A stretch of 32,000 nt of DNA, taken from positions 5,700,001-5,732,000 of the forward strand of contig NC_008312.1 of NCBI RefSeq assembly GCF_000014265.1. The letters run 5' to 3'. The number at the start of each line of letters is the position of its first letter. Position 1 is the stretch's first letter. Positions 1,248 to 25,606 of the stretch are shown in pieces. Source of the stretch: Trichodesmium erythraeum IMS101. Its GTDB lineage: Bacteria; Cyanobacteriota; Cyanobacteriia; Cyanobacteriales; Microcoleaceae. The translations under genes and the position numbers were made by a program. The notes under the pieces are model-generated. The model saw only the letters and a list, made by a program, of their open reading frames with translations, was not told the DNA's origin and ran no database searches.

Positions 1248-1946
1248 ATGCATCAAACAAAATTTTGGGCGATCGCTCCTTTTGGTCTACTAACTATTTT
1301 GGGAAAACCTTTACTTTCCCCCGCACTTCCAATTCATCAGGCCGTTGTTAATTTTAGCTATGTAGATGAAAGTTCAACGAAGTCTGAAATTTTTGCCCAG
1401 GATACTTCATTTCCCAAAGTGACTCCATCACCAGAAATGACTCCGACTTTAGAGGACAGTCCATCACCAGAAATGACTCCGACTTTAGAGGACAGTCCAT
1501 CACCAGAAATGACTCCGACTTTAGAGGACAGTCCATCACCAGAAATGACTCCGACTTTAGAAGACAGTCCATCACCAGAAATGATCCCTCCCACCCAAGA
1601 ACCAGAAATAATCTTACAGCAACCAGGAATGCTTAGTGATGATGATTTAGTACTTCCATCTGATGAAAGTGTTTACGATGAACATACTTTTGAAGGGACA
1701 GAAGGTCAGGTAGTAACTGTAACTGTAGAAAGTCCTGATTTTGATACTTACTTAGCAGTTTTTAGTCCTGATACTAAACTACTGGGAGAACATGATGATA
1801 TTAGTAAGAAAAATACAAACTCTCAACTAACAATTACTTTACCTATGACAGGTAAATACCGTGTAATAGTTAACTCTTACGATAAAACAGGTAGAGGTGA
1901 GTATAATTTACAAGTAATTCAATCAGGGCAAACATCAGATTTTTGA
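1248..1946 (+). CDS. Secreted repeat protein with a C-terminal PPC-like domain
   Basis: The N-terminus is hydrophobic and signal-like (FWAIAPFGLLTILGKPLL). It contains five SPSPEMTPTLED repeats. The C-terminal segment (YDEHTFEGTEGQVVTVTVESPDFDTYLAVF...TGKYRVIVNSYDKTGRGEYNLQV) is paralogous to the C-terminus of the 2..592 product. Confidence 0.7.
   Translation: MHQTKFWAIAPFGLLTILGKPLLSPALPIHQAVVNFSYVDESSTKSEIFAQDTSFPKVTPSPEMTPTLEDSPSPEMTPTLEDSPSPEMTPTLEDSPSPEMTPTLEDSPSPEMIPPTQEPEIILQQPGMLSDDDLVLPSDESVYDEHTFEGTEGQVVTVTVESPDFDTYLAVFSPDTKLLGEHDDISKKNTNSQLTITLPMTGKYRVIVNSYDKTGRGEYNLQVIQSGQTSDF
1424..1590 (+). repeat. 36-bp in-frame tandem repeat, about 4.6 copies
   Basis: The unit TCCATCACCAGAAATGACTCCGACTTTAGAGGACAG starts at 1424, 1460, 1496, 1532 and 1568. 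Across the full copies I saw one substitution (GAG to GAA in copy 4). Confidence 0.95.
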
Positions 1947-2510: not shown

Positions 2511-2855
2511 ATGGATAATGATTTAAATATTCAGGTTGTACCTGTAGAGTTAGAGAATGGCAATGTAGTAAGAGTTGAAGCTACTGTTCTTAATGCATCA
2601 GGAGATACTTCTGATCAAGAAATTGAATCAGATGTGGCAGCTAATATCAGACCGCTCAAAGAAGTAACTGATACAGTAAAGGAAATTGCTGCAACTGTGA
2701 AAGCTTCCATAGATCAAGTTAAACCAACTAAAGCTTCTGTTGAATTTGGCTTAGAATTTGGTTATGAGTCAGGAAAGCTAACAGCTATGATCGTGAAAGG
2801 AACGGCAAAAGCAAATCTAAAAATTACTCTACATTGGGAAAATATTTCAAAATGA
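2511..2855 (+). CDS. trypco2-like (trypsin co-occurring domain 2 / CU044_2847-like) small protein
   Basis: 114 aa. The layout matches my memory of the family: an N-terminal beta segment (IQVVPVELENGNVVRVE), a helical middle, and a C-terminal VEFGLEFGYESGKLTAMIVKGTAKANLKITLHWE motif. It sits directly upstream of a trypsin-like protease and overlaps it. Confidence 0.75.
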   Translation: MDNDLNIQVVPVELENGNVVRVEATVLNASGDTSDQEIESDVAANIRPLKEVTDTVKEIAATVKASIDQVKPTKASVEFGLEFGYESGKLTAMIVKGTAKANLKITLHWENISK

Positions 2856-3775
2856 GGAATAGTATAGATGCCGGACGCTTGTACGAGTTATTTCGTAGTT
2901 GCATAGTACGAATTAAAACCTCAAAGAGTTTTGGTACAGGCTTTTGGGTCACTCCTGGACATATTCTTACCTGTGTTCATGTTATTGAGGGGAATGATCA
3001 CGATAGTATTGAAATTGTCTGGAAGCAAAATAATTATCAGTGTACAGAGATTAATATTTTTCAAGATGCTGACCTGGCTTTACTTAAGGTTGAAATAGAA
3101 AGTCATCCTTGTGTGTTTTTGGATGAAGACGCTTTACCAGGAGATGAGCTCTATAGTTATGGTTATCCTGAGCAAAAGCGAGATGGGGCTTCAATTACAA
3201 TGATTTGTGAAGGGCCTACAGATAATAAGAGGTTTTTGACGGTTAAGGATGAGAATGTTAGACCTGGGTTTAGTGGCGCTCCTTTATTTAATCAAAGAAC
3301 GTTCATGGTTTGTGGTGTGCTCAAGAGTGAACGTAAGTTTCCTGTTAATGGTAATGTACTACGGGCTTTGGGTGGACAAGCAATTCCAACTGCGAGAATT
3401 TTTGATAAGTGGCCTAATTTAAAAATATCTAATCAGGAGTTCCATCAAAAGTATCAAAGTTGGAGAAAAGAACTGGAAGTAACTAAACAGCAAGAACAAA
3501 ATTCACCACAATATTCGGCACAATATTCTATAAATAGTTCTTCTGAAAATCCGAGAATTCAATCTTTAAAAAATCAGAAACAAAGAATAGAGTCTCAGAT
3601 AGCTGAACTAGAAAAACTAAGTCATTTATGTAATCAAGATATAAAGGCAGAAACTAATTTGGCTAAAAGAAATCAGCTTCATACACAAATGGATAATTAT
3701 TCGACAGAAATTAACGAGTTATATGACAAGGTTCAGCAAATTATAGCTCAAATTAATAAGTTTCAAAATACTTAG
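2852..3775 (+). CDS. Trypsin-like serine protease (predicted effector) with a C-terminal coiled-coil adaptor tail
   Basis: Catalytic triad context: His in HILTCVHV, Asp in DADLALLKV, Ser in RPGFSGAPLF. The ATG at 2852 overlaps the upstream TGA (ATGA at 2852-2855), so I prefer it to the TTG at 2834. The last ~70 aa are a heptad-rich helix and form copy 1 of the 266-bp cassette. Confidence 0.85.
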   Translation: MRNSIDAGRLYELFRSCIVRIKTSKSFGTGFWVTPGHILTCVHVIEGNDHDSIEIVWKQNNYQCTEINIFQDADLALLKVEIESHPCVFLDEDALPGDELYSYGYPEQKRDGASITMICEGPTDNKRFLTVKDENVRPGFSGAPLFNQRTFMVCGVLKSERKFPVNGNVLRALGGQAIPTARIFDKWPNLKISNQEFHQKYQSWRKELEVTKQQEQNSPQYSAQYSINSSSENPRIQSLKNQKQRIESQIAELEKLSHLCNQDIKAETNLAKRNQLHTQMDNYSTEINELYDKVQQIIAQINKFQNT

Positions 3776-3804
3776 TTTATACAAGTAATTAAAAAGTTAT
3801 TTAA

Positions 3805-4041
3805 ATGTCAGATATTCAGAAATTAAAAAGTTTAGAAAATCGGCAACAAAGAATAGAGTCTCAGATAGCTGAACTAGAAAAACTAAGTCATTTATGTAAT
3901 CAAGATATAAAGGCAGAAACTAATTTGGCTAAAAGAAATCAGCTTCATACACAAATGGATAATTATTCGACAGAAATTAACGAGTTATATGACAAGGTTC
4001 AGCAAATTATAGCTCAAATTAATAAGTTTCAAAATACTTAG
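3805..4041 (+). CDS. Stand-alone coiled-coil adaptor module, 78 aa (copy 2)
   Basis: Intact ORF. The N-terminus resembles that of the 4608 gene (MSDIQKLKSLENRQQRIESQ against MSYIQKLKSLENQKQRIESQ). The remainder is identical to the protease tail. There is no clear Shine-Dalgarno sequence, so expression is uncertain. Confidence 0.5.
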   Translation: MSDIQKLKSLENRQQRIESQIAELEKLSHLCNQDIKAETNLAKRNQLHTQMDNYSTEINELYDKVQQIIAQINKFQNT

Positions 4042-4070
4042 TTTATACAAGTAATTAAAAAGTTATTTAA

Positions 4071-4307
4071 ATGTCAGATAGTCAGAAATTAAAAAGTTTA
4101 GAAAATCGGCAACAAAGAATAGAGTTTTAAATAGCTGAACCAGAAAAATTAAGTAATTTATCTAATCAAGACATAAAGGCAGAAAGTAATTTGGTTAAAA
4201 GAACTCAGCTTCATACACAAATGGATAATTATTCGACAAAAATTAATGAATTATATGATAAATTTCAGCAAATTATAGCTCAAATTAATAAGTTTCAAAA
4301 TACTTAG
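4071..4307 (+). pseudogene. Degenerate coiled-coil module (copy 3)
   Basis: Same ATG context as copy 2, but codon 20 is TAA (GAG TTT TAA in place of GAG TCT CAG). The rest aligns with copies 2 and 5. Confidence 0.7.
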
Positions 4308-4336
4308 TTTATACAAGTAATTAAAAAGTTATTTAA

Positions 4337-4578
4337 ATGTCAGATAGTCAGAAATTAAAAAGTTTGGAAAATCGGCAACAAAGAATAGAGTTTTAAATAG
4401 CATAGCTGAACCAGAAAAATTAAGTAATTTATCTAATCAAGACATAAAGGCAGAAAGTAATTTGGTTAAAAGAACTCAGCTTCATACACAAATGGATAAT
4501 TATTCGACAAAAATTAATGAATTATATGATAAATTTCAGCAAATTATAGCTCAAATTAATAAGTTTCAAAATACTTAG
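4337..4578 (+). pseudogene. Degenerate coiled-coil module (copy 4)
   Basis: Shares the TTT TAA nonsense with copy 3 and adds a 5-nt insertion (CATAG). Otherwise nearly identical to copy 3. Confidence 0.7.
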
Positions 4579-4607
4579 TTTATACAAGTAATTAAAAAGT
4601 TATCTAA

Positions 4608-5693
4608 ATGTCATATATTCAGAAATTAAAAAGTTTGGAAAATCAGAAACAAAGAATAGAGTCTCAAATAGCTGGACTAGAACAACTAAGCAATAAATGT
4701 AATCAAGAGATAAAGGCAGAAACTAGTTTAGCTCAAAGAACTCAGCTTAATACACAAATGGATAACTATTCGACAGAAATTAATGAACTATATAACAAAC
4801 TTGATCATATTGAAAATGAAATTGAAAATCTCAAGTTAAAGGAGAAAAGTTTGAGTTCAAACGATTATTTAGACAACCCTAAAAATCAGCAATTATTAAA
4901 ATTTGAGCAATACTTGTATGATATCGATTTTGAAAAAGCTTTAAAAACTTTTCAAAGAATTACATCTCAGTTTAATAAGGAGGGAGATGTAGCTTTGTTT
5001 TTCATAGAAAAATGTTTGACTAATCGAGGAGATTTATGTTTAAAAAGACTAAAAGATGACTTATTTTCAGAGACTTATAATATTCACAGGCAACATTTTC
5101 GTCCCTGTTTTGTCACATATACTTTAGGAAATTTAGAAGGAGTAATACAAGGAATAGCTAAATTTTTTGACGTTAAAAAAGAAGAAATGACTGTAGAATT
5201 AGTTATCAATAAAATAGGTAATTCTTTACAAAATAATTCGGTTTTGTTTATAGAAATTAATTGTGATATTAGTCAGCCTAGTGACATAGATCCATTAATA
5301 CCTTGGTTTATTAATGTTTTTTGGAAACCTTTGAGAGAAAAAGTAAACGAAGTAGCTAAGGATTATGAAGGTATTAAAGTTGTAGCTGTAATAACTTCTA
5401 ATCTATTACTTAATTCCAGATTTTCAAACTCAGAATTATCCTCCTACTATAATCGCAAAAGTAGAATTTTTTCTAGAGATAAATTAGTCAAAATACCTTT
5501 AGAAAAATGGAAAAAAGAAGATATTAAAAAATGGTTGACTAAATATGGTAATCCTCGTTTAAAAAACACAGATAAAGATACTATAGCTGAAAAAATTTAT
5601 AATGCAACTGACAAAGGAAGACCTACAGATGTTTGCCTAGCTTTACAACAAAAACAATGGCAAAACTTAATATATTCAAACCCTACCTATTAA
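4608..5693 (+). CDS. Coiled-coil adaptor (copy 5) fused to a degenerate P-loop/STAND-like domain (iSTAND-like)
   Basis: The first ~70 aa are homologous to the protease tail. The remainder has NTPase-like strand/helix spacing: DVALFFIEKCLTNRGD where a Walker A should be (no GxxxxGK[ST]), SVLFIEINCD (Walker-B-like), IKVVAVITSN (sensor-1-like) and KLVKIPLEKWKKEDIKKWL (STAND-like helical start). That it is a CDS is secure. The fold assignment is by eye. Confidence 0.6.
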   Translation: MSYIQKLKSLENQKQRIESQIAGLEQLSNKCNQEIKAETSLAQRTQLNTQMDNYSTEINELYNKLDHIENEIENLKLKEKSLSSNDYLDNPKNQQLLKFEQYLYDIDFEKALKTFQRITSQFNKEGDVALFFIEKCLTNRGDLCLKRLKDDLFSETYNIHRQHFRPCFVTYTLGNLEGVIQGIAKFFDVKKEEMTVELVINKIGNSLQNNSVLFIEINCDISQPSDIDPLIPWFINVFWKPLREKVNEVAKDYEGIKVVAVITSNLLLNSRFSNSELSSYYNRKSRIFSRDKLVKIPLEKWKKEDIKKWLTKYGNPRLKNTDKDTIAEKIYNATDKGRPTDVCLALQQKQWQNLIYSNPTY

Positions 5694-5711: not shown

Positions 5712-6707
5712 ATGAATTACCATTTTGAAAATAATCCTAAAAATCGTCCTTCTAAACCTCATTCTGATTCACCTAAAAAAGTTGAACCCTACATTGCGCC
5801 AGATGAGTTAATTGATGCAGTAAACTTAGCAATTTTTCTGCGCCGTCCTCTCTTATTAGAAGGAGAAGCAGGCTGTGGAAAAACTCGATTACCACTCGCA
5901 GTTGCTTATGAATTAGGATTACCTTTTTATCGTTGGAATATTCGTTCAACTGCTAAAGCACAAGAAGGTTTATATGAATATGATGCTATCCTCAGACTCC
6001 ATGATGTTCAAACTCAAAAATTAGAAATAAAAAATAATAATCAAGACAAAGATAAAACTTATAGAAATCCTAGTAACCCTGAAAATTATCGAACTTTTGG
6101 AGCAATTGGTAATGCTTTTCTTTCAAATTGCCCGGCAATAGTTTTAATTGATGAAATAGATAAAGCTGACGTAGATTTTCCTAATGATTTACTAACAGTT
6201 TTAGATGAACCTTGGGAATTTAAAATTAGAGAAACTGGAGAAACAATTACCGCTAAAACTAATTGTCAGCCAATTGTAATTATTACTAGTAATAAAGAAA
6301 AAGGAAACTTACCAGCTCCTTTTCTACGTCGTTGTATTTATTATTATCTGAAATTTCCAGATGACCCTAAACAACTTCAAAAAATTGTTGATATTCACTA
6401 TCAATATAAACCAGACTCAGAAATTCTCAAAAAAATTAATTCCTCAAATAATGAATTAGTACAACAAGCTGCTCAACTATTTATTAAAATTAGAGAAAAT
6501 AAAGGCTTATTTAAAATTCCAGGTACAAGTGAATTTTTAGATTGGTTATATGCACTTTGTAGTTGTCAGACAAAACAAAATCCTCAGCTTCCTTATCCTC
6601 TTGAGAAATTAAAAGAAGGAGAATTAATTCCTTATCGAGAATTAATTTTTAAAATTCGTCAAGATTGGCAAAAAAATACCACTTTTCCTCAAACTAGTGA
6701 TTTATAA
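5712..6707 (+). CDS. MoxR-like AAA+ ATPase (AAA_5 type)
   Basis: Walker A LLEGEAGCGKTRL, Walker B IVLIDEIDKAD, sensor-1 IVIITSN, and an Arg-rich LPAPFLRRC segment. Size and order are typical of MoxR partners of vWA proteins. Confidence 0.9.
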   Translation: MNYHFENNPKNRPSKPHSDSPKKVEPYIAPDELIDAVNLAIFLRRPLLLEGEAGCGKTRLPLAVAYELGLPFYRWNIRSTAKAQEGLYEYDAILRLHDVQTQKLEIKNNNQDKDKTYRNPSNPENYRTFGAIGNAFLSNCPAIVLIDEIDKADVDFPNDLLTVLDEPWEFKIRETGETITAKTNCQPIVIITSNKEKGNLPAPFLRRCIYYYLKFPDDPKQLQKIVDIHYQYKPDSEILKKINSSNNELVQQAAQLFIKIRENKGLFKIPGTSEFLDWLYALCSCQTKQNPQLPYPLEKLKEGELIPYRELIFKIRQDWQKNTTFPQTSDL

Positions 6708-6774: not shown

Positions 6775-7839
6775 ATGTTTGAACCTAACTCTTATTTAAC
6801 AACTCTTTTTTATCATTTGCGTCAAGCAGGTTTTAATCTGAGTATTAAAGAATACTTTTCGGTAAAAGATGCAATTAAAGGAGGTTGGGGAACAAAAAAT
6901 CAAGAAGACTTAAAAAAACTCCTACGCTTACTATGGTGTAACTCTTGGGAGCAACAACAGCATTTATCCCTAATATTTGATAGGATTTTTGAATCTGAAA
7001 AAACTCAAGAAACAACACCAAACCCCTCCACAAAAAATCAAAAAAATTTAAATTATGAACAACTTGAATCAGACTCATCAACTCCTATTTCTCCTACTAC
7101 AAAATTTCAATCTTCTTCAACAGAAATAACTAAACCAACCACTGAAAAACTATCCCCACTACCTATCACTAATATTCAACCAATACGAGAACATGAAAAC
7201 GACGCCGAATTTTATACTTATTATCCCATTTCTCGCCGTTTTATGGTTTATAGTTGGCGATATTTACGTCGCCCCATTGCTGACGGACTTAGAGATGTTT
7301 TAGATATTAAAATGACTGTTGAACAAGCTACAAAACAAGGATTTTTCTTACAACCAGTCTACCGTCGACGAGAAAAAAATCATGCTCATTTACTAATTTT
7401 CGTAGATCAAGAAGGTTCCATGACTCCCTTTCATCATTTCAGTCAAGACTTAGTAGAAACAGCTAAATATGAAAGCTCTATAGAAACAGTAGACGTTGCT
7501 TATTTTCATAACTTACCAGCAAAATATATTTATCAAGATCCTTTTTTGACTGATAAAATTTCCTTAGAAACTGTCTTAAATAAATGTGATAGTGAAACTA
7601 GAATTTTAATCATTAGTGATGCAGGTGCTGCTAGGGGGTATCGTCAGCGAACAAGAGTTTCAGGCACAACTGAAGTAATATGGGAAATTCAACAGCATAC
7701 TAACTTAGTAGCATGGCTTAACCCAGTTCCAAAAATGCGTTGGAATAACACTACAGCTAGTATTATCTCTCATTTAATACCTATGTTTCCTATGGATCAA
7801 GAAGGTTTAAGACAAGCTATTTTGACTTTACAAAGATAA
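6775..7839 (+). CDS. von Willebrand factor A (vWA, CoxE-like) protein, partner of the MoxR ATPase
   Basis: C-terminal vWA pattern: HLLIFVDQEGSM (MIDAS position) followed by RILIISDAGAARG. There is an N-terminal helical region and a low-complexity S/T/P/Q linker. It lies immediately downstream of the MoxR gene. Confidence 0.8.
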   Translation: MFEPNSYLTTLFYHLRQAGFNLSIKEYFSVKDAIKGGWGTKNQEDLKKLLRLLWCNSWEQQQHLSLIFDRIFESEKTQETTPNPSTKNQKNLNYEQLESDSSTPISPTTKFQSSSTEITKPTTEKLSPLPITNIQPIREHENDAEFYTYYPISRRFMVYSWRYLRRPIADGLRDVLDIKMTVEQATKQGFFLQPVYRRREKNHAHLLIFVDQEGSMTPFHHFSQDLVETAKYESSIETVDVAYFHNLPAKYIYQDPFLTDKISLETVLNKCDSETRILIISDAGAARGYRQRTRVSGTTEVIWEIQQHTNLVAWLNPVPKMRWNNTTASIISHLIPMFPMDQEGLRQAILTLQR

Positions 7840-7846
7840 TATAGAA

Positions 7847-9430
7847 ATGACAGAAATAACAGATAAAATTATCGCTCAGAATAAAGTAGAACAATTTGTA
7901 AGTCGTTTTGAAGATTCCTATTTCTTATTAGCTTCCCATGTCGCTTTACCTCTAGTATTAACTCCAGAATTAGTCAATTATCTCAGAATTGAATTTCTCA
8001 AAAGTGAAAAAGTTCCTTGGATTTCTGAAGCTGATTTATTGTTATCTAATTTGTGTCGTCCAGTTGGTTATGAACTTTATGTAATGGATGAAGGAGTAAG
8101 AATTTATTTACTCCAAAAATTAGCAGAAAACCCAAAGTTTGGTCAGAAAAGAATTAAAGAAATTGCCCGTTTATTACTGAGCTATATTAAATATTTAGCT
8201 AAAACTAATCATTTTATTGGAGACAAAGAACTACAACTTCAGACATGGGGTGCAATGTTGTATTTAGATACAGAGAAAACTGTCAAGGAAATAGCTTTTG
8301 CTATCTCTCAATGTATAGATAAAGCAGAGTTAGCTCGTTTACTAAAAATTACCCAAGATTTTAAACAACAAATAGCTTCATCAGGACAATTTCAAGACTT
8401 TTTAGACTATGCTCAACTTTGTAATGAATTACTTAGAGAACCTGAAAAAGTAACCCTAGAAAAAATAACACATTCATACCAGGTCGCAAAGCTTGAATTA
8501 ACTATACCAAAAATAGTTTTATCAAAAGAATTAGATCTAGGGGAATTATTTTATTTTGAAGTTGTAAAAGTTGATAATTTTGGCAATATTATTGAGCGTA
8601 GTCAGGAAAGCGCTAGGCAGAAAATAGAATATTTGGGTAATGAAATTAAATTGGAAATGGTTTATATTCCTGGGGGTACTTTTACCATGGGTTCTCCTAA
8701 AAGTGAAGTGGATAGCAGAGATAATGAACGGCCCCAACATCAGGTAACTGTTCCTTCCTTTTTTATGGGCAAATATCCAGTAACTCAAGGACAGTGGAAA
8801 GCGATCGCCTCTCGAACAGAATTAAAAGTAGAACGAGACCTAGACCCAGAGCCATCATATTTTAAAGAACCATACGAAAGTATAGATAGATGGCAGAGAC
8901 CAGTGGAGCTGGTTAGTTGGAACCAAGCAGTAGAATTTTGTCAAAGACTATCAAAACTAACAGGAAGAAAGTACAGGTTACCCAGTGAAGCCGAATGGGA
9001 ATATGCTTGTCGTGCAGGAACGAGTACACCATTCTACTTTGGAGAAACCATAACATCTGAGTTAGCTAACTATGATGGCAACCATACTTACGGCAAAGGG
9101 CCAAAAGGAGAAAATAGAGAGCAAACAACTCCTGTAGGTAAATTTCCACCAAATGCTTTTGGTTTATATGATATGCACGGAAACGTTGATGAATGGTGTG
9201 CTGACGACTGGTATGATAATTATGTAGGAGCTCCTACAGATGGAAGTGCTAGGATTAATAGTAATAAAAATAGTAATACTAATAGTACAAAAGTATTTCG
9301 TGGCGGCTCCTGGATCTACTATCCTTGGTGGTGTCGCTCTGCGCTCCGCGGCAACTTTAACTCGGACGAGGCGGACAGCATCTCTTTTGGTTTTCGTCTT
9401 GTGAGTTTCCCCCCCAGGACTTTTGAATAG
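7847..9430 (+). CDS. N-terminal helical domain of unknown function fused to a formylglycine-generating-enzyme/sulfatase-modifying (FGE-sulfatase, FGS) domain
   Basis: From about residue 260: MVYIPGGTFTMGSP, ERPQHQVTVPSFFMGKYPVTQGQW, VSWNQAVEFCQRLS, YRLPSEAEWEYACRAGT, FGLYDMHGNVDEWC, RGGSW...FGFRLV. These are the canonical FGE-sulfatase motifs. The start is 7 nt after the vWA stop. Confidence 0.9.
   Translation: MTEITDKIIAQNKVEQFVSRFEDSYFLLASHVALPLVLTPELVNYLRIEFLKSEKVPWISEADLLLSNLCRPVGYELYVMDEGVRIYLLQKLAENPKFGQKRIKEIARLLLSYIKYLAKTNHFIGDKELQLQTWGAMLYLDTEKTVKEIAFAISQCIDKAELARLLKITQDFKQQIASSGQFQDFLDYAQLCNELLREPEKVTLEKITHSYQVAKLELTIPKIVLSKELDLGELFYFEVVKVDNFGNIIERSQESARQKIEYLGNEIKLEMVYIPGGTFTMGSPKSEVDSRDNERPQHQVTVPSFFMGKYPVTQGQWKAIASRTELKVERDLDPEPSYFKEPYESIDRWQRPVELVSWNQAVEFCQRLSKLTGRKYRLPSEAEWEYACRAGTSTPFYFGETITSELANYDGNHTYGKGPKGENREQTTPVGKFPPNAFGLYDMHGNVDEWCADDWYDNYVGAPTDGSARINSNKNSNTNSTKVFRGGSWIYYPWWCRSALRGNFNSDEADSISFGFRLVSFPPRTFE
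9299..9400 (+). other. Candidate DGR variable region (VR) at the 3' end of the FGS gene
   Basis: By my count there are 12 A in 102 nt and about 57% GC, in a locus that is about one-third GC. The protein reads GGSW-IYYPWW-CRSA-L-R-GNFNSDEADSIS-FGFR. That is the conserved scaffold of CLec/FGE-fold DGR targets, with idiosyncratic residues where template-repeat Asn codons usually sit. No cognate TR or RT is in the window. Confidence 0.45.
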
Positions 9431-9464
9431 CCCTTTGCCCTCTTGCCCTCTTGCCCTATTTAGT

Positions 9465-9491
9465 CTCGCCTTTGGCGAGCCGAATTTTTTT
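9465..9491 (+). terminator. GC hairpin plus T-run: operon terminator and/or DGR-associated hairpin
   Basis: CTCGCC (9465-9470), TTT loop, GGCGAG (9474-9479), then CCGAATTTTTTT. It lies 35 nt after the FGS stop codon. Confidence 0.5.
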
Positions 9492-10363
9492 GAGAAATTA
9501 TCAAATGGCCACCAAATCAATAGATTTAATAGATATAACAATAGAAAAAAGCTCAGAACACTAAATTATGCAAAATTTTGTTTAAAAGCCGAAATTAATG
9601 ACTTAAACTGTGCTTCGACTGGTATCATAAATATGAAGCTTAGGCTCAAAAACCTAAAATTTAGGGCAGGAAGAAAATTCCCAGAAAATTTATCCTCTTA
9701 TCCCGTAATTAAATAAAGACACCCAGGTTTAAACCCGTAGTCAAAGTCTGGAATGCTAGTGTCTACTTGCAAAAAATAGTAGTATTATTTTTAGGTTGAA
9801 TTTCCTTAAGTTCAAGTTTTTTGTTTTACCTTAGCAAGCATATTAATTTATACAACTAGATAATAGTGTTGCTTCTCAGGAAAATTTCTGAATACTTGAT
9901 TATCTCTTACTAACGAATTTTTGTTGAATAAAAAGTCATGTATATAGGCAAGTTTCTCCATCTAATCTTATAATATCACAAAAAAAAATCTGAGAAGGGG
10001 AGGAAAGATTTTGCGCCGCGTCGCTTTTTCGGAGCTCCAGAAAATGAAATAAAAGTTGGCGATTTTCTACTGAGGAAGAATAAATGGAAAAATTCGACTA
10101 TGGGAAAAAAATAGAGGGGTGCTTCACAGAATGAGTTAAATAAATTAGTCTTACTTTTGGGAAAATTATTAAATGCTTGATTCTATTTTCCTAAAAAAAA
10201 GAGTTGAATAAAAAGTCATGTATATAGGCAAGTTTCTCCATCTAATCTTATAATATCACAAAAAAAATCTGAGAAGGGGAGGAAAGATTTTGCGCCGCGC
10301 CTCTTTTTCGGAGCTTCAGAAAATGAAAAAAAAAGTTGTTGATTTTCTACTGAGGAAGAATAA

Positions 10364-10459
10364 ATGGAAAAGTTCGGCGGTGGGAAAGAATATTGGAGTG
10401 CTTCACAGAATGAGTTAAATGAATTAGTCTTGCTTTTGGGAAAATTATTAAATCCTTGA
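10364..10459 (+). CDS. Array-encoded small ORF, 31 aa (MEKFGGGKEYWSASQNELNELVLLLGKLLNP)
   Basis: GAGGAAG lies 5 nt upstream of the ATG. The frame is shared with units 3, 4, 6 and 7. Coding status is unproven. Confidence 0.3.
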   Translation: MEKFGGGKEYWSASQNELNELVLLLGKLLNP

Positions 10460-10642
10460 TTGTATTTTCCTGAAAAAAAAGAGCTGAATAAAAAGTCATG
10501 TATATAGGCAAGCTTCTCCATCTAATCTTATAATATCACAAAAAAAATCTGAGAAGGGGAGAAAAATTTCTGCGCCGCGCCGTTTTTTCGGAGCCCCAGA
10601 AGATGAAATAAAAGTTGGCGATTTTCTACTAAGGAAGAATAA

Positions 10643-10747
10643 ATGGAAAATTTCCGCGATGGGAAAGAATATTGGAGTGCTTCAGAACATGAGCTAAATG
10701 AGTTAAATGAATTAGCCTTGCTTTTGGGAAAATTATTAAATCCTTGA
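10643..10747 (+). CDS. Array-encoded small ORF, 34 aa (MENFRDGKEYWSASEHELNELNELALLLGKLLNP)
   Basis: AAGGAAG lies 5 nt upstream of the ATG. It differs from the 31-aa form by an in-frame 12-nt indel. Confidence 0.3.
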   Translation: MENFRDGKEYWSASEHELNELNELALLLGKLLNP

Positions 10748-10930
10748 TTGTATTTTCCTGAAAAAAAAGAGTTGAATAAAAAGTCATGTATATAGGCAAG
10801 CTTTTCCATCTAATCTTATAATATCACAAAAAAAATCTGAGAAGGGGAGAAAAATTTCTGCGCCGCGCCGCTTTTTTGGAGCCTCAGAAGATGAAATAAA
10901 AGTTGGTGATTTTCTACTAAGGAAGAATAA

Positions 10931-11035
10931 ATGGAAAAATTCGGCGATGGGAAAGAATATTGGAGTGCTTCAGAACATGAGCTAAATGAGTTAAATGAAT
11001 TAGCCTTGCTTTTGGGAAAATTATTAAATGCTTGA
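10931..11035 (+). CDS. Array-encoded small ORF, 34 aa (MEKFGDGKEYWSASEHELNELNELALLLGKLLNA)
   Basis: AAGGAAG lies 5 nt upstream of the ATG. The frame is intact. Confidence 0.3.
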   Translation: MEKFGDGKEYWSASEHELNELNELALLLGKLLNA

Positions 11036-11510
11036 TTGTATTTTCCTGAAAAAAAAGAGTTGAATAAAAAGTCATATATATAGGCAAGCTTCTCCATCTA
11101 ATCTTATAATATCACAAAAAAAATCTGAGAAGGGGAGAAAAATTTCTGCGCCGCGCCTCTTTTTCGGAGCTCCATAAGATGAAATAAAAGTTGGTGATTT
11201 TCCGCTGAGGAAGAATAAATGGAAAAATTCGGCGAAGGGAAAGAATAGCGGAGTGCTTTACAGGATGAGTTAAATGATCTGAATGAGCTAAATAAATTAG
11301 TCTTGCTTTTGGGAAAATTATTAAATCCTTGATTGTATTTTCCTAAAAAAAAAGAGTTGAATAAAAAGTCATATATATAGGCAGGCTTCTCCATCTAATA
11401 AGATCACAAAAAAAATCTGAGAAGGGGAGGAAAGATTTTGCGCCGCGCCGCTTTTTCGGAGCCTCAGAAGATGAAATAAAAGTTGGTGATTTTCTACTAA
11501 GGAAGAATAA

Positions 11511-11615
11511 ATGGAAAAATTCGGCGATGGGAAAGAATATTGGAGTGCTTCAGAACATGAGCTAAATGATCTAAATGAATTAGCCTTGCTTTTGGGAAAA
11601 TTATTAAATGCTTGA
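11511..11615 (+). CDS. Array-encoded small ORF, 34 aa (MEKFGDGKEYWSASEHELNDLNELALLLGKLLNA)
   Basis: AAGGAAG lies 5 nt upstream of the ATG. The frame is intact. The TATAAT box of this unit is deleted (CTAATAAGATCAC). Confidence 0.3.
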   Translation: MEKFGDGKEYWSASEHELNDLNELALLLGKLLNA

Positions 11616-11798
11616 TTGTATTTTCCTAAAAAAAAAGAGTTGAATAAAAAGTCATATATATAGGCAAGTTTCTCCATCTAATCTTATAATATCACAAAAA
11701 AAATCTGAGAAGGGGAGAAAAATTTCTGCGCCGCGCCTCTTTTTCGGAGCTCCAGAAAATGAAAAAAAAGTTGGTGATTTTCTACTAAAGAAGAATAA

Positions 11799-11894
11799 AT
11801 GGAAAATTTCGGCGATGGGAAAGGATATTGGAGTGCTTCACAAAATGAGTTAAATGAATTAGTCTTGCTTTTGGGAAAATTATTAAATGCTTGA
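11799..11894 (+). CDS. Array-encoded small ORF, 31 aa (MENFGDGKGYWSASQNELNELVLLLGKLLNA)
   Basis: A weaker AAGAAG lies 5 nt upstream of the ATG. The frame is intact. Confidence 0.25.
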   Translation: MENFGDGKGYWSASQNELNELVLLLGKLLNA

Positions 11895-12912
11895 TTATAT
11901 TTTCCTAAAAAAAAGAGTTGAATAAAAAGTCATACATATAGGCAAGGTTCCACATCTAATCTTATAGTATCACAAAAAAATCTGAGGAGGGGAGGGAAAA
12001 TTTTGCGTCGCGTCGCTTTTTCAGAGCTCCAGAAAATGAAGCCAAAATGGTGATCTCCTCTGAGGAAGAATATGTGAGAGAGAATAGCGGAGTGCTTCAC
12101 AGGATAAGCCAAATGAATTAGTCTTGCTTTTGGGAAAACTATTAAATCCTTGATTGTATTTTCCTAAAAAAAAGAGTTGAATAAAAAGTCATGTATATAG
12201 GCAAGCTTCCTATTTAATCTTATATTATCACAAAAAATCTGAGAAGGGGAGGAAAGATTTTTCGACGCGCTACTTTCCCGGAGCTCCAGAGAATGAAATA
12301 AAATGGTTTGTGACTTTTCACTAAAGAAGAATAAATGAAAAAATTCGACTATGGGAAAAAAATAGAGGGGTGCTTCACAGAATGAGTTAAATAAATTAGT
12401 CTTACTTTTGGGAAAATTATTAAATGCTTGATTCTATTTTCCTAAAAAAAAGAGTTGAATAAAAAGTCATGTATATAGGCAAGCTTTCCATCTAACCTTA
12501 TAATATCACAAAAAAATCTGAGAAGAGGAGGAAAGACTTTGCGCCGCGCCTCTTTTTCGGAGCCACAGAAGATGAAATAAAAGTTGATGATTTTCTACTA
12601 AGGAAGAATAAATGGAAAATTCGACCATGGGAAAGAATAGCTAAGTGCTTCACAGAATGAGCCAAAAGAATGGGAAAATTATTAAATCCTTGATTGTATT
12701 TTCCTAAAAAAAAGAGTTGAATAAAAAGTCATGTATATAGGCAATATTCCCCATCTAATCTTATATTATCATAAAAAATCTGAAAATGGAAGGGAAATTT
12801 CTGTAGCGCGCCGCTTTTTTTTTTGGAGCTTCAGAGAATGAAAAAAAATCATTTGTGACTTTTCATTAAAGAGGAATAGATAGAAAAATTCGACTATAAT
12901 TCTCCCCTTAAT

Positions 12913-19799: not shown

Positions 19800-20960
19800 G
19801 AAGCTGTGCTTAATATAAATTAACAAGATGTAATAGTGAAGAAAATAATAGAGCGATCGCCAGCCTAAACATTGGCCATTAATAAAGTATTGGTAATAAA
19901 TTCCCAGCCAGTTATTTGAGATATTACTTTTTGAGTTAATTTATTTAAACTCTTAGTCAGAGCAATTTGTCATTTTTCTATACTGTCAAAATTAATTAAC
20001 TTAAAATCTTCTTTAATGTATCACCACAATCTCTCTATATAATTAACTTGTGGACTATATGGTAGTTGAAATAATAGAATAATATTCTCAGGAAGATTTA
20101 AGTTTAAAGCTTTGTGTAAACGACTTATTTAAACTCTTAGTCAGAGCAATTTGTCATTTTTCTATACTGTCAAAATTAATTAACTTAAAATTTTCTTTAA
20201 TGTATCACCACAATCTCTCTATATAATTAACTTGTGGACTATATGGTGGTTGAAATAATAGAATAATATTCTCAGGAAGATTTAAGTTTAAAGCTTTGTG
20301 TAAACGACTATTCTCTAACTAAATTATGTATATTTTATGAATTCAATTGCTATCCAAATAATTCAAAAAACTTTTCAAAGCCAATACAATTAATGAGAGT
20401 AAATTCCCAAAAAAAGCTTTCTCCTTTTAATGGTTATACTAACTATTATAACCATCTATATCAAAATTTTCATTGTTCTTTTCCTATCGATTTTACTCTT
20501 TTGAAAGTCACCTTTTATCCAGAAAAAGTTTTAATCTCAAAACGACTTTGATCCTGACACCAATCACGAATTTTTATACTATCTTTCAACATTTATTGAT
20601 TTTTATCTAACAGAGATTGAATTAGACCTGGTAGTTTTTTTTCCAGTTATTTACAGCATCTTTTTCTTGTTTGATATTAACTGGACGTGGAACTGTGAGT
20701 TTGGTTTTTAATTGATAATGAGCTATTTTAGATATAGTTCCATAACTTGCTGGGATATTATAAACACTCAATACCATTTATAAATTTCAGTATAACTATA
20801 AAAACCTTCTGGACCTTCTAATTCTCCTTTTAATTAATCTTTAAATATTTCTGGAATTAAAGATTGACGACCATAACTGGTATCAATTGTTAATAGTTTT
20901 TCTATTCTACCTTTACAGTAACTTAACTATCTAGAATTTGCTTATGATATTTTTTTTTCA
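19800..20960 (-). mobile_element. Degenerate IS630-family transposase relic
   Basis: Minus-strand translation, broken by many stops and frameshifts, gives an HTH-region fragment ...EGPEGFYSYTEIYKW...KTKLTVPRPVNIKQEKDAVNNWKK and a DDE-region fragment NIILLFQLPYSPQVNYIERLWWYIKEDF (compare LPPYSPELNPIE). The boundaries are approximate. Confidence 0.6.
19941..20308. repeat. 184-bp tandem duplication (2 copies) inside the IS630 relic
   Basis: 19941-20124 and 20125-20308 differ at two positions by my reading. Confidence 0.9.
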
Positions 20961-23475: not shown

Positions 23476-23883
23476 TGTGTAAGGGAGCAATTGTGGCAGC
23501 TATATCCCCACCTTAGTGCAAAAAAGCCAGAAAAAGATATAAGCTTTTTGATTTCCCAATGATTAAAATTAAGGATTTTGAGGCTTTTCAGGGATAAAAA
23601 TTGAAAGAAAAGACATCAGTACAGGACAAAACATTTTAAAACGTTATGAAAATCAGCTATTTTGCTAGGTATATTCAAGAAAATATTACCCAAAAATATT
23701 CTGACTTCACCAACGGCTAAATTGCTAAAAATCACTCTTAAAGGTAAATATCAGCTTCCATCAACAATTAAGTCTGTGTGATAAATCCTGATAGAAAACC
23801 CCCAATTAAACGAAAGATATTTAAACCATTGTTTACATAGAAATTCTCTATATCCTGTTAGGTATGCTGTTAGGTATGCTACT

Positions 23884-24009: not shown

Positions 24010-24772
24010 AATATGATAATTTTGTATGTTTTCAAGCTACTATTGAGTTCAGTAATTACTCAAAACCCATTTTTATGAGCAGTTCATAATGGTGATCAAA
24101 GTCTAGAGGAATTTTCTGGTATCTATGTCAAAGTTAGGGAAAACCTTTGTAAGGGTTTGTAATTAGAACTTACTTGGGCATTAGATGAGAATGCAGTTGC
24201 TATTTGTACCTGGTTAATACTTTTGACTTGAAATATAACCTAGATAAATAAAAGAAGAAATTTGACTCTGGCTTCATGCTAATAAAAGTAGTGTTTAAAG
24301 TTTTTTGTAGTCAACTCTGGAGGGGTAATAGGCAAGACTAAAAAGCTGACATAAAATGGTTTGTAGCTTTTATAATTCTCTGATAATTGAGCCATTTTTG
24401 AGAGTTATTGGCTATCAATTCCTCTGTTTATTCTGCAAACATGAACAAGGAATTTAACCAATATTGACCTCTATTTCCTGTATAAATATAGCTATTTTGT
24501 TTATATTTTATTCCTTTTTAAATTGGATAATTTACATAATTTACGACTCTTTTTTGACAATGTATTTTTCAAAAATTAATAATTAATAGGAAGCTAAAGT
24601 CATCAATAATATGATAGAAATTAATATTTTACCTTAACTTTAGTTACTTCCAAATTATAGCCTATTGTATTAAGAAATGGGAACATTTATTCAATACCTA
24701 TTCGTTTTTTATAGGTATTTATTTTCATTTATAAATCCCATAAATTTGTAATTATAAATTATGGCTGTTTTA

Positions 24773-25606
24773 CTATATTTTTTTCGATTTTAAGACAATA
24801 TTGATTGATATAAAATACTTAGATTGATTGATTTTTTTATTGTAAATATATAGATATATTCAGCTTTATTTATAATAATATTATAGCTATATATAGTTAT
24901 ATTTATATATACAATCTTTTTTTTCTCTAAAATAAAAACATGTCTTTTATTGATTTTTAACTATTTAGCTAGTTCCATAATATAGAATAATCTATTTCAT
25001 AAAGCTACTTTTTGGCAATCATCAAATCGAGCTAAAACTATCGGGATAAAACTTTAGATAAATATTCTTGCTTTCCTCTAAAATTACTATTACTTTTTTT
25101 GTCAATATTAGTAATATAAAATTGACTTACATATATCGCAATTGTTGATATTTATCTATATTTTTTTCTATTTTAAGACAATATTTATTGATATAAAATA
25201 CTTAGATTTATTGATTTTTTTTTATTGTAAATATATAGATATATTCGGCTTTATTCATAATTATATTATAGCTATATATAGTTATAGTTATATTTATATA
25301 TACAATCTTTTTTTTCTCTAAAATAAAAACATGTCTTTTATTGATTTTTAACTATTTAGCTAGTTCCATAATATAGAATAATCTATTTCATAAAGCTACT
25401 TTTTGGCAATCATCAAATCGAGCTAAAACTATCGGGATAAAACTTTAGATAAATATTCTTGCTTTCCTCTAAAATTACTATTACTTTTTTTGTCAATATT
25501 AGTAATATAAATCGGCATACTATTAAGTTTATAAATTAGGCTTATTAATAATAAATTTACCCAATTAAATTGACTTACATATATCGCAATTGTTGGTATT
25601 TATCTA
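24773..25606. repeat. 383-bp tandem duplication (2 copies), extremely AT-rich and non-coding
   Basis: Copy 1 is 24773-25155 and copy 2 is 25156-25606. Copy 2 carries a ~56-bp insertion (TCGGCATACTATTAAG...CCCAATTA) and a few small indels. No ORF is present. Confidence 0.9.

What the first reader, a model, noticed from the sequence alone, without database searches (positions are those of the whole stretch)
3553..4800. The coiled-coil module shared by the protease tail and the next gene's N-terminus has been amplified into five tandem 266-bp cassettes
The same ~70-aa helical module (QKLKSLENxxQRIESQIAELEKLSHLCNQDIKAETNLAKRNQLHTQMDNYSTEINELYDK...) appears in three contexts. It ends the protease (copy 1). 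It starts the STAND-like protein (copy 5). Between them it occurs three more times, each with its own ATG and the same 29-bp spacer.

- Copy 2 is intact and chimeric: its head resembles copy 5 and its body is identical to copy 1.
- Copies 3 and 4 share the same TTT TAA nonsense, so they duplicated after inactivation.

A module shared between an effector and an NTPase-like scaffold follows the logic of homotypic effector-associated adaptor domains.

Inference: unequal crossing-over between the two native copies created the array. Copy-number change could shuffle or uncouple the effector-scaffold connection. The stand-alone 78-aa copy could act as a decoy or competitive inhibitor.
Basis: partly seen in the sequence, partly recalled or inferred. 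Interest (0 to 1): 0.7.

Follow-up and report, generated by a model that had tools for sequence, protein, structure and literature searches.

The report
Tandemly amplified adaptor-domain cassette in Trichodesmium
A small helical "adaptor" domain, predicted to dock a protease onto the scaffold protein of a cyanobacterial defence or cell-death operon, has been duplicated into five tandem 266-bp cassettes, most likely by unequal recombination; one internal copy is an intact adaptor-only mini-gene, two are dead, and the array looks more like a polymorphic by-product than a new device.

Summary
Window 3539-4873 carries five 266-bp cassettes (TRF: period 266, 4.6 copies, 93% matches).

- Copy 1 is the C-terminal tail of a trypsin-like peptidase.
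- Copy 5 is the N-terminus of a Pfam iSTAND protein.
- Copy 2 is an intact 78-aa ORF whose last 226 bp match copy 1 exactly.
- Copies 3 and 4 share a TAA at codon 20, and copy 4 also has a 5-bp duplication.

The window is the finished Trichodesmium erythraeum IMS101 genome (Tery_3713, Tery_3714, Tery_3716). The operon is Trypco1, trypsin, iSTAND, MoxR-like AAA+, CoxE-type vWA and an FGE-sulfatase protein. This is the iSTAND ternary conflict system of Kaur et al. 2020.

The module behaves as an effector-associated domain (EAD). It is a confidently predicted helical hairpin. In other cyanobacteria it sits on the C-termini of trypsin, CHAT and TIR-like proteins next to module-iSTAND genes. It scores just below threshold for Pfam EAD9.

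Other genera have two copies. Trichodesmium assemblies show 2, 3, 5 or about 9, with mosaic cassettes. This fits unequal recombination between the two native copies.

Changes specific to copies 3 and 4 look neutral (9 non-synonymous, 2 synonymous) and hit conserved residues. The decoy idea is untested and only weakly supported.

The parts
2511..2855 (+). Trypco1 (trypsin-co-occurring domain 1) protein, 114 aa. Its stop overlaps the peptidase ATG at 2852.
   Evidence: Pfam PF19493, 75.3 bits. NCBIfam CU044_2847 family.
2852..3775 (+). Trypsin-like serine peptidase, 307 aa, Tery_3713. The C-terminal ~74 residues are module copy 1.
   Evidence: Pfam Trypsin_2, 48.7 bits. Exact match to ABG52772. 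Motifs that look like the His/Asp/Ser catalytic triad (TCVHV, DADLALLK, GFSGAP) are visible in the translation; this is my reading of the sequence, not a tested result.
3539..3804 (+). Cassette c1: peptidase tail (module), TAG stop and 29-nt spacer (3776-3804).
3805..4070 (+). Cassette c2: intact adaptor-only ORF 3805-4041 (78 aa, Tery_3714) plus spacer. The head is iSTAND-type. Positions 41-266 are identical to c1.
   Evidence: AlphaFold2 gives a helical hairpin (H3-37, H41-76), pLDDT 96.
4071..4336 (+). Cassette c3: pseudogene (B-type body) with TAA at 4128-4130.
4337..4607 (+). Cassette c4: pseudogene with the same TAA (4394-4396) plus a 5-bp ATAGC duplication (4397-4406). Its spacer carries a T-to-C change.
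4608..5693 (+). iSTAND protein, 361 aa, Tery_3716. Residues 1-78 are module copy 5 (hairpin). Residues 80-124 form a low-confidence linker. An alpha/beta iSTAND domain follows.
   Evidence: Pfam iSTAND PF19995, 45.6 bits, residues 103-250. AF2 model. Alignment A1.
5712..6707 (+). MoxR-like AAA+ ATPase, 331 aa.
   Evidence: Pfam AAA, AAA_5 and AAA_2. Partial NCBIfam MadB_ATPase match.
6775..7839 (+). CoxE-type vWA protein, 354 aa.
   Evidence: Pfam VWA_CoxE, 34.1 bits.
7847..9430 (+). Protein of 527 aa with an unassigned N-terminal region and a C-terminal FGE-sulfatase (C-type lectin-like) domain. The 3' ~100 nt vary strongly between populations.
   Evidence: Pfam FGE-sulfatase, 203.7 bits. No Pfam hit for residues 1-268. 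Variation pattern.

Best explanation
What the module is. The ~75-residue module is an effector-associated adaptor domain (EAD), EAD9-like and folded as an antiparallel two-helix hairpin. It sits in an iSTAND-MoxR-vWA ternary conflict system of Trichodesmium erythraeum IMS101.

How it is inferred to work. One copy ends the trypsin-like peptidase and one begins the iSTAND scaffold. By the published EAD principle, the two copies associate with each other. This docks the peptidase onto the iSTAND/MoxR/vWA/FGE-sulfatase machinery.

How the array arose. The two native copies are direct repeats whose homologous positions lie 266 bp apart. Unequal homologous recombination or replication slippage between them inserts cassettes with an iSTAND-type start and head, a protease-type body, stop and spacer. 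Repeated rounds plus gene conversion gave the five-cassette array.

What the internal cassettes are. They are by-products. c2 is a very recent intact copy that would encode an adaptor-only protein. c3 and c4 belong to an older cassette type that drifted neutrally, acquired a stop, was duplicated, and then gained a frameshift in c4.

Shown:
- The anatomy of the array.
- The domain content of the operon.
- The hairpin prediction.
- The distribution of the module on different effectors.
- The two-copy state in other genera.
- Variable and mosaic arrays among Trichodesmium assemblies.
- The neutral substitution pattern of the B-type cassettes.

Inferred:
- Homotypic binding of the module.
- The recombination mechanism.
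- That the internal cassettes have little or no function.
For: Operon identity:
- Trypco1, Trypsin_2, iSTAND, AAA, VWA_CoxE and FGE-sulfatase lie on one strand. No terminator-like site is found until 9465.
- This matches the iSTAND ternary system and EAD description in PMC7159879, sections 20 and 30.

Adaptor behaviour:
- A profile of the module finds only 39 representative clusters among 1.84 billion proteins. Excluding one repetitive false positive (P0098), the hits I inspected carry it either at the N-terminus of ~360-aa iSTAND proteins or at the C-terminus of CHAT, trypsin, TIR-like or caspase-like proteins.
- The effector-tail gene lies next to the iSTAND-head gene in Anabaena L017, Calothrix L023, Okeania L025, Xenococcus L026 and L020/L022.
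- The two copies within a locus are 67-86% identical, against a between-locus mean of 59%. They are 93% identical at DNA level over 144 bp in Anabaena.

Fold:
- AF2 predicts a hairpin with pLDDT 96 for the module alone. The same hairpin appears in the full iSTAND protein, followed by a low-confidence linker.

Origin of the array:
- The cassette unit equals the c1-to-c5 offset.
- c2 matches the iSTAND-type head with 2 mismatches in 60 against L037, and matches c1 exactly over its last 226 bp.
- L037 and L016 show two-cassette states. Many TARA contigs show three. IMS101, L006 and L007 show five. L024 has a ~9-unit degenerate array with a different 258-bp junction. L038 has an independent 273-bp duplication next to a module-GUN4 gene.
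- Mosaic haplotypes exist whose junctions are absent from IMS101, so they are not simple assembly collapses: L001 and L004 (intact B-type cassette), L008 and L010 (ATT head joined to a TAA body), L007 (B-like tails on c1 and c2).

Decay:
- B-lineage-specific changes are 9 non-synonymous to 2 synonymous, the neutral site ratio (~4.5:1). They include L24P, C31S and E57K at positions at least 90% conserved in the family.
Against: - No binding or expression data exist for any copy.
- Pfam EAD9 scores are 17-24 bits, below the 25-bit cutoff, and generic coiled-coil families score similarly. hhalign against the one bona fide EAD9-iSTAND protein found is weak (E = 0.018).
- c1 and c5 are only 73% identical, so they may pair less well than in other loci.
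- Pairwise dN/dS between A-type and B-type cassettes is ~0.25-0.4. Taken alone, this would suggest some constraint. I attribute it to variants inherited from functional copies.
- Intact stand-alone 78-aa variants recur in several populations, so some function is not excluded.
- Copy numbers from short-read metagenome assemblies can be collapsed.
Confidence: 0.72

Rival explanations
1. The intact stand-alone cassette (Tery_3714) is a selected adaptor-only regulator. It would bind the EAD of the iSTAND protein or of the peptidase and compete with productive peptidase-scaffold docking. This would set an activation threshold, much as CARD-only and Pyrin-only proteins do for inflammasomes.
For: - c2 has its own ATG and the same 29-nt upstream spacer as the iSTAND gene, differing by 1 nt. 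It should therefore be translated whenever the iSTAND gene is.
- It lies inside the operon with no terminator-like site nearby.
- Its body is identical to the peptidase adaptor, so it should bind the same partner.
- Intact 78-aa variants occur in several metagenomic populations (P0001-P0007) and in an independent lineage (P0118/L038).
Against: - c2 has no private substitutions, so its intactness is explained by youth.
- Two of the three internal cassettes are dead.
- B-type private changes are neutral in ratio and hit conserved residues.
- Close relatives (L037, L016) and all other genera examined have no internal cassette.
- The MAG_R02 array is entirely degenerate.
Confidence: 0.17
2. The array is a contingency (phase-variation-like) locus. 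Frequent gain and loss of cassettes, or deletion between c1 and c5, would switch the system between coupled, attenuated and fused states. A c1-to-c5 deletion would fuse peptidase and iSTAND in frame.
For: - Different cassette numbers and mosaic haplotypes occur among natural populations.
- c1 and c5 are in the same codon phase relative to the cassette, so a c1 x c5 deletion would be in frame.
- Direct fusions of peptidases to iSTAND domains are reported in PMC7159879, section 20.
Against: - With units of 266 bp and 80-99% identity, recombination is expected to be far rarer than at true contingency repeats.
- No fused allele was found among about 40 contigs.
- Variation tracks lineages (MAG_R01, IMS101 and MAG_R02 types) rather than appearing within single samples.
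Confidence: 0.06
3. The repeat is an assembly artefact, or the module is just a generic coiled coil with no adaptor role.
For: - Coiled-coil Pfam families such as Prefoldin_2 and Seryl_tRNA_N score about as well as EAD9.
- Foldseek finds only generic hairpins, all with E > 0.1.
- Several scaffolds carry N-gaps inside the array: L002, L003, L005 and L011.
Against: - The genome is finished, and two independent five-cassette assemblies exist.
- The cassettes differ by diagnostic SNPs and an indel.
- The module family is narrow, with 39 clusters in 1.84 billion proteins. It always sits at the terminus of an effector or an iSTAND protein, paired in adjacent genes.
Confidence: 0.04

Closest known systems
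iSTAND-type MoxR-vWA ternary conflict systems with effector-associated domains (Kaur, Burroughs, Iyer, Aravind 2020, eLife 9:e52696; PMC7159879)
   Same: - The core trio is the same: iSTAND, MoxR-like AAA+ and CoxE-type vWA.
- An FGE-sulfatase (FGS) domain protein is present, as is a Trypco1 plus trypsin-like signalling peptidase pair.
- A small alpha-helical domain occurs once on the core component and once on the adjacent peptidase.
- The host is a multicellular cyanobacterium.
   Different: - Here the adaptor cassette is tandemly amplified between the two genes, giving an adaptor-only ORF and two pseudogenes.
- The word searches I ran in that paper and its 2021 follow-up did not turn up such arrays or EAD-only genes.
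- The FGS domain is on a separate protein rather than fused to the vWA protein.
Pfam PF19962 EAD9 (an EAD said to recruit signalling components such as peptidases)
   Same: - It is an all-helical domain of ~60-75 residues found at iSTAND N-termini. P0045 carries EAD9 plus iSTAND.
- It has the same proposed role of recruiting peptidases.
- Matches cover the full length of the model (positions 7-62 of 62), and EAD9 is the top-scoring family for several members.
   Different: - All members of this module family score 17-24 bits, below the 25-bit gathering cutoff.
- Relative to P0045 there is a ~13-residue length difference around the hairpin turn.
- hhalign gives only E = 0.018.
CARD-only and Pyrin-only proteins of mammals (CARD16/COP, CARD17/INCA, CARD18/ICEBERG next to CASP1). 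This comparison is recalled from my own knowledge and was not tested here.
   Same: Adaptor-domain-only genes that arose by local tandem duplication of the adaptor-coding part of a neighbouring protease gene.
   Different: - Those proteins have a death fold rather than a helical hairpin.
- They have demonstrated inhibitory activity. Here there is no functional evidence, and most copies are decayed.

Membership tests
iSTAND ternary system (Kaur et al. 2020) | A protein with an inactive STAND domain as the third core component | tested here: met
   Pfam iSTAND PF19995, E = 1.3e-11, 45.6 bits against a cutoff of 24, residues 103-250 of ORF 4608-5693.
iSTAND ternary system (Kaur et al. 2020) | A MoxR-like AAA+ ATPase and a vWA protein (CoxE-type N-terminal region) encoded alongside | tested here: met
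   ORF 5712-6707 hits AAA, AAA_5 and AAA_2. ORF 6775-7839 hits VWA_CoxE at 34.1 bits against a cutoff of 26.4. The same gene order is found in Anabaena, Calothrix, Okeania and Xenococcus. Assignment to the MoxR clade rests on generic AAA models plus context, not on a MoxR-specific model.
Effector-associated domain (EAD), operational definition of Kaur et al. 2020, section 30 | One copy at a terminus of the core component, and further copies at termini of effector or signalling proteins, often in the adjacent gene | tested here: met
   The module is N-terminal on iSTAND proteins and C-terminal on trypsin, CHAT, TIR-like and caspase-like proteins. The two genes are adjacent in 8 loci.
Effector-associated domain (EAD), operational definition | Small, non-enzymatic, mostly alpha-helical domain | tested here: met
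   About 75 residues. AF2 predicts a two-helix hairpin with pLDDT 96. No enzymatic family hits were found.
Effector-associated domain (EAD), operational definition | Copies encoded by adjacent genes are each other's closest relatives | tested here: inconclusive
   In 5 of 8 loci no other tail scores higher than the locus's own tail, with one tie. Within-locus identity is 67-86%, against a between-locus mean of 59%. In the three Trichodesmium trypsin loci, including the window (73%), the L020 CHAT tail scores higher than the locus's own tail.
Effector-associated domain (EAD), operational definition | Homotypic physical interaction between copies | not testable with these tools
   Only monomer prediction is available and there are no interaction data. 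The published claim is itself a prediction.
Pfam EAD9 (PF19962) | Score at or above the gathering threshold of 25 bits | tested here: not met
   Window copies score 16.7 bits (c2), and c5 gives no hit at E <= 0.01. Relatives score 19-24.2 bits. Only P0045, a different branch, passes at 28.8 bits. I treat the module as EAD9-like and do not file it as a member.
DGR-diversified C-type-lectin/FGE-sulfatase sensor (side issue) | A 3' variable region that differs at adenine-templated positions from a template repeat next to a reverse transcriptase | not tested
   No template repeat or reverse transcriptase lies in the window. I saw only patchy hypervariation against L004, plus the published statement that the IMS101 DGR targets at least 12 DUF323 genes.

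The most novel reading that the evidence does not exclude
Tandem duplication of the adaptor cassette is a recurrent route by which EAD-coupled bacterial conflict systems create adaptor-only proteins. These would act as dominant-negative governors of protease recruitment, a prokaryotic counterpart of CARD-only and Pyrin-only inhibitors. Gain and loss of cassettes in natural Trichodesmium populations would then tune the trigger threshold of a cell-death or defence pathway.
Probability: 0.15. Interest if true: 0.75.

Novelty: new variant of a known kind. Interest (0 to 1): 0.38.

Why it matters
**Test case for the EAD principle.** The idea that matching adaptor domains couple effectors to NTPase scaffolds is so far only a bioinformatic prediction. 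This locus offers a natural test set:
- a peptidase tail;
- an identical stand-alone copy;
- a drifted copy carrying a proline in helix 1;
- a 73%-identical scaffold head.

Together these could be used directly to measure the specificity of homotypic binding.

**Evolutionary mechanism.** Two adjacent direct repeats of an adaptor-coding segment are inherently unstable, and recombination between them can give three kinds of product:
- **Expansion:** adaptor-only genes.
- **Homogenisation:** concerted evolution of the pair, as seen in Anabaena and Okeania.
- **Contraction:** an in-frame deletion that would turn a two-gene coupled architecture into the directly fused one seen in other systems.

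**Practical use.** The array is a ready length marker for Trichodesmium lineages. It is also a trap for short-read assemblies.

Tried and rejected
- **Metagenome pattern scans.** Two exact-pattern scans of JGI metagenome contigs, one with the spacer junction and one with the conserved core, found nothing. All population evidence therefore comes from ENA and NCBI contigs retrieved by exact protein look-up.
- **Genome scan.** The genome-contig scan did not return the source genome, only five more distant loci. The source was identified instead by exact protein look-up.
- **EAD9 by profile comparison.** The last homologue search, seeded with the EAD9 domain of P0045, found no candidates. hhalign of the module alignment against P0045 was weak, with E = 0.018 and probability 2.5%. 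The question stays open.
- **Foldseek against PDB.** Only generic helical hairpins came back (ESCRT-III, CHMP4B, ING4, seryl-tRNA synthetase arm), all with E > 0.1. This says nothing about homology.
- **Top profile hit.** P0098, 3151 aa with 28 matched stretches, is an unrelated repetitive coiled-coil protein. I discarded it.
- **Pairwise dN/dS.** Values of 0.23-0.6 between cassettes are uninformative about selection on the internal copies, because most differences are inherited from functional copies. I replaced this with a count of polarised B-specific changes.
- **Internal signals.** The consensus scan found no terminator-like site in the array, and promoter-like matches in the region were no more frequent than in shuffled sequence.
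- **Rfam.** No RNA family in the window reaches its gathering score.
- **Dimer modelling.** A heterodimer model of tail and head was not possible.


Full report
**1. The observation**

Tandem Repeats Finder reports one array at 3565-4799 with period 266, 4.6 copies and 93% matches. The repeat finder puts five copies in register with spacings of 266, 266, 271 and 266 bp.

I cut the region at the ATG of each unit and aligned the units:
- c1, 3539-3804, is the end of the peptidase ORF, in frame with the ATG at 2852.
- c2, 3805-4070, holds an intact 78-aa ORF (3805-4041).
- c3, 4071-4336, has TAA at codon 20.
- c4, 4337-4607, has the same TAA plus a 5-bp ATAGC duplication that shifts the frame.
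- c5 starts the 361-aa ORF 4608-5693.

Each unit ends with TAG and a 29-nt spacer. The spacers are identical except for one T-to-C change before c5.

c1 and c2 differ at 16 positions, all within the first 40 nt, and the remaining 226 nt are identical. c3 and c4 are 99.2% identical. A tblastn search of the whole window finds no sixth copy.

**2. Where the window comes from, and whether the array is real**

Exact protein look-up identifies the genes as Tery_3713 (peptidase), Tery_3714 (78 aa), Tery_3716 (361 aa) and ABG52777 (FGE-sulfatase protein). All are from the finished 7.75-Mb genome of Trichodesmium erythraeum IMS101.

Five cassettes appear in two independent assemblies. One is a T. erythraeum GBRTRLIN201 MAG contig (L006). 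The other is an ENA contig at 231x coverage (L007), which also carries the 5-bp insertion in c4. An assembly artefact is very unlikely.

**3. What the genes are**

Pfam and NCBIfam scans give:
- 2511-2855: Trypco1.
- 2852-3775: Trypsin_2 peptidase.
- 4608-5693: iSTAND (45.6 bits, cutoff 24; residues 103-250).
- 5712-6707: AAA+ (AAA, AAA_5).
- 6775-7839: VWA_CoxE.
- 7847-9430: C-terminal FGE-sulfatase.

All lie on one strand, closely spaced (gaps of at most 67 nt outside the array), and no terminator-like site is found before 9465.

This is the "iSTAND ternary system" of Kaur et al. 2020 (PMC7159879, section 20). That system has an inactive STAND protein with a MoxR-vWA pair, most commonly an FGS (FGE-sulfatase) domain, and peptidases or EADs on the iSTAND N-terminus. 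It is concentrated in multicellular cyanobacteria. The ATPase of the system is the neighbouring AAA+ protein.

**4. What the module is**

*Fold.* AlphaFold2 with a 22-sequence alignment predicts a two-helix antiparallel hairpin (H3-37, H41-76) with mean pLDDT 96. In the full iSTAND protein the same hairpin is followed by a low-confidence linker (residues 80-124) and an alpha/beta domain. Foldseek finds only generic hairpins.

*Distribution.* Homologues of the iSTAND protein carry the module at their N-terminus in Anabaena, Calothrix, Okeania, Xenococcus and many metagenomes. Other branches carry EAD1, EAD7 or EAD9 in that position.

A profile of the module searched against 1.84 billion representative proteins finds only 39 clusters. 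Excluding one repetitive false positive (P0098), the hits I inspected carry it either at the N-terminus of ~360-aa proteins or at the extreme C-terminus of CHAT, trypsin, TIR-like or caspase-like proteins.

In each of six non-window loci the effector-with-tail gene lies about 30 bp upstream of the module-iSTAND gene.

*Fit to the EAD definition.* This distribution matches the operational definition of an effector-associated domain.

The third EAD feature, that adjacent copies are each other's closest relatives, gives a mixed result:
- In 5 of 8 loci no other tail scores higher than the locus's own tail (one tie).
- Within-locus identity is 67-86%, against 59% between loci.
- In Anabaena the two copies share 93% DNA identity over 144 bp.
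- In IMS101 itself, tail and head are 73% identical.

*Pfam family.* EAD9 is the most specific family hit, and the top hit for several members, but all scores are 17-24 bits against a cutoff of 25. Generic coiled-coil models score similarly. hhalign against the one true EAD9-iSTAND protein is weak. I therefore call the module EAD9-like and do not file it in PF19962.

**5. How the array arose**

*The two-copy baseline.* In the two-copy state, homologous positions of tail and head lie exactly one cassette (266 bp) apart. L037, a 29.8-kb contig of Trichodesmium sp. MAG_R01, shows this state. So does L016, although that contig ends 344 bp into the iSTAND gene.

*The predicted product.* An unequal exchange between tail and head predicts a new unit with an iSTAND-type start and head joined to a protease-type body, stop and spacer. 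That is the structure of c2:
- The heads of c2 and c3 differ from the MAG_R01-type iSTAND head at 2 of 60 positions.
- They differ from IMS101's own c5 at 5-7 of 60 positions.
- They differ from c1 at 16-19 of 60 positions.
- From position 191 to the end of the cassette they follow c1, with 0-2 mismatches.

*Other array states.*
- Three-cassette contigs come from many TARA and other marine samples.
- A roughly nine-unit, fully degenerate array with a different 258-bp junction occurs in Trichodesmium sp. MAG_R02 (L024). Heptamer (TGTTAGG) insertions interrupt some of its units.
- An independent 273-bp duplication lies next to a module-GUN4 gene in L038.

*Assembly caveat.* Some three-cassette contigs could be collapsed versions of longer arrays. 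Several, however, carry junctions that do not exist in IMS101, so they are distinct haplotypes:
- an intact B-type cassette in L001 and L004;
- an ATT head joined to the TAA body in L008 and L010;
- B-like tails on c1 and c2 in L007.

Together these show ongoing exchange among cassettes. Other genera show only the two native copies.

**6. Are the internal cassettes functional?**

*c2.* It carries no substitution of its own, so its intactness says nothing about selection. Its 29-nt leader is the same as the iSTAND gene's, apart from 1 nt. If the operon is expressed, c2 should be translated. This is an inference from sequence.

*B-type cassettes (c3, c4 and their intact relatives).* I polarised changes against c1/c2 and c5. 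The B lineage has 9 non-synonymous and 2 synonymous private changes. That equals the ratio of non-synonymous to synonymous sites (137:30). The changes include L24P in helix 1, C31S and E57K, at positions at least 90% conserved across the family. A stop followed, then duplication, then a frameshift.

This is the trajectory of a dispensable copy. The most economical reading is that the array is a recombinational by-product in a genome already known for abundant repeats and pseudogenes (PMC4143802).

*The alternative.* The adaptor-only protein might compete with the peptidase for the scaffold, in the manner of CARD-only proteins. This remains possible, because intact stand-alone variants recur (P0001-P0007, P0118). 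No evidence here favours it. I give it about 15-17%.

**7. A corollary (inference)**

c1 and c5 share the same codon phase relative to the cassette. A deletion between them would therefore fuse the peptidase to iSTAND in frame. This gives a simple route between the EAD-coupled and directly fused architectures that Kaur et al. describe. No such allele was seen among about 40 contigs.

**8. Verdict**

- The EAD-type interpretation is correct but already published as a principle.
- The unequal-crossover origin and lineage polymorphism are well supported.
- The decoy or tuning function is unsupported.

The new element is that tandem amplification of an EAD cassette can create adaptor-only ORFs. 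I saw this three times: two different array types at the Trichodesmium protease-iSTAND locus, and a duplication in an unidentified metagenome contig. It is a modest variant of a known system. Its main value is as a natural reagent set for testing EAD pairing.

Noticed in passing
window 9290-9480 (3' end of ORF 7847-9430 and its flank): The last ~100 nt of the FGE-sulfatase gene differ from metagenome contig L004 at 21 of 100 positions. The differences fall in patches between conserved blocks, while most of the upstream gene differs by 0-9 per 100 nt. A GC-rich flank and a hairpin (9465-9479) follow. Many MAG contigs end inside this gene. It looks like a variable region of a diversity-generating retroelement. 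The IMS101 DGR is reported to target at least 12 DUF323 genes (PMC4143802). No template repeat or reverse transcriptase lies in the window.
   Followed up: partly
window 9923-12894: A tandem array of ~288-bp units, about 10 copies at 81-86% identity, lies just downstream of the operon. Each unit carries a minus-strand ORF of 93-102 aa that looks non-coding (rich in F, S and N). No Rfam family matches. It may be one of the transcribed non-coding repeat arrays known in this genome.
   Followed up: partly
window 1424-1584, in ORF 1248-1946: An in-frame 36-bp repeat, 4.5 copies at 99% identity, encodes PSPEMTPTLEDS in a PPC-domain protein. The gene called at this position varies from 133 to 232 aa between metagenome contigs, which suggests repeat-number variation.
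   Followed up: no
L015 616-700 and L024 4946-5069, 5240-5319; compare window 23851-23880: Arrays of the heptamer TGTTAGG/TTAGGTG are inserted inside adaptor cassettes in other Trichodesmium lineages and disrupt them. A related 12-mer repeat (TATGCTGTTAGG) occurs in the window.
   Followed up: no
L038 1-630 (ENA ERZ780647): The same adaptor module is the N-terminus of a GUN4-domain protein, followed by a HEAT-repeat protein, rather than of an iSTAND protein. A 273-bp cassette encoding a stand-alone 78-aa copy is duplicated immediately upstream. The contig starts inside the array.
   Followed up: partly
window 4608-4845 versus L037 4001-4266 and L014 37-273: The adaptor head of the IMS101 iSTAND protein differs markedly from that of close relatives whose iSTAND proteins fall in the same 90% cluster. 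An IMS101-type head also appears as a stand-alone cassette joined to a MAG_R02-type tail. This is either exchange between lineages or a chimeric metagenome assembly.
   Followed up: partly
window 19941-20309 and 24769-25511: Two further long tandem duplications, 184 bp x 2.0 at 98% and 391 bp x 1.9 at 95%, lie in AT-rich intergenic DNA (23-27% GC near 24-26 kb).
   Followed up: no
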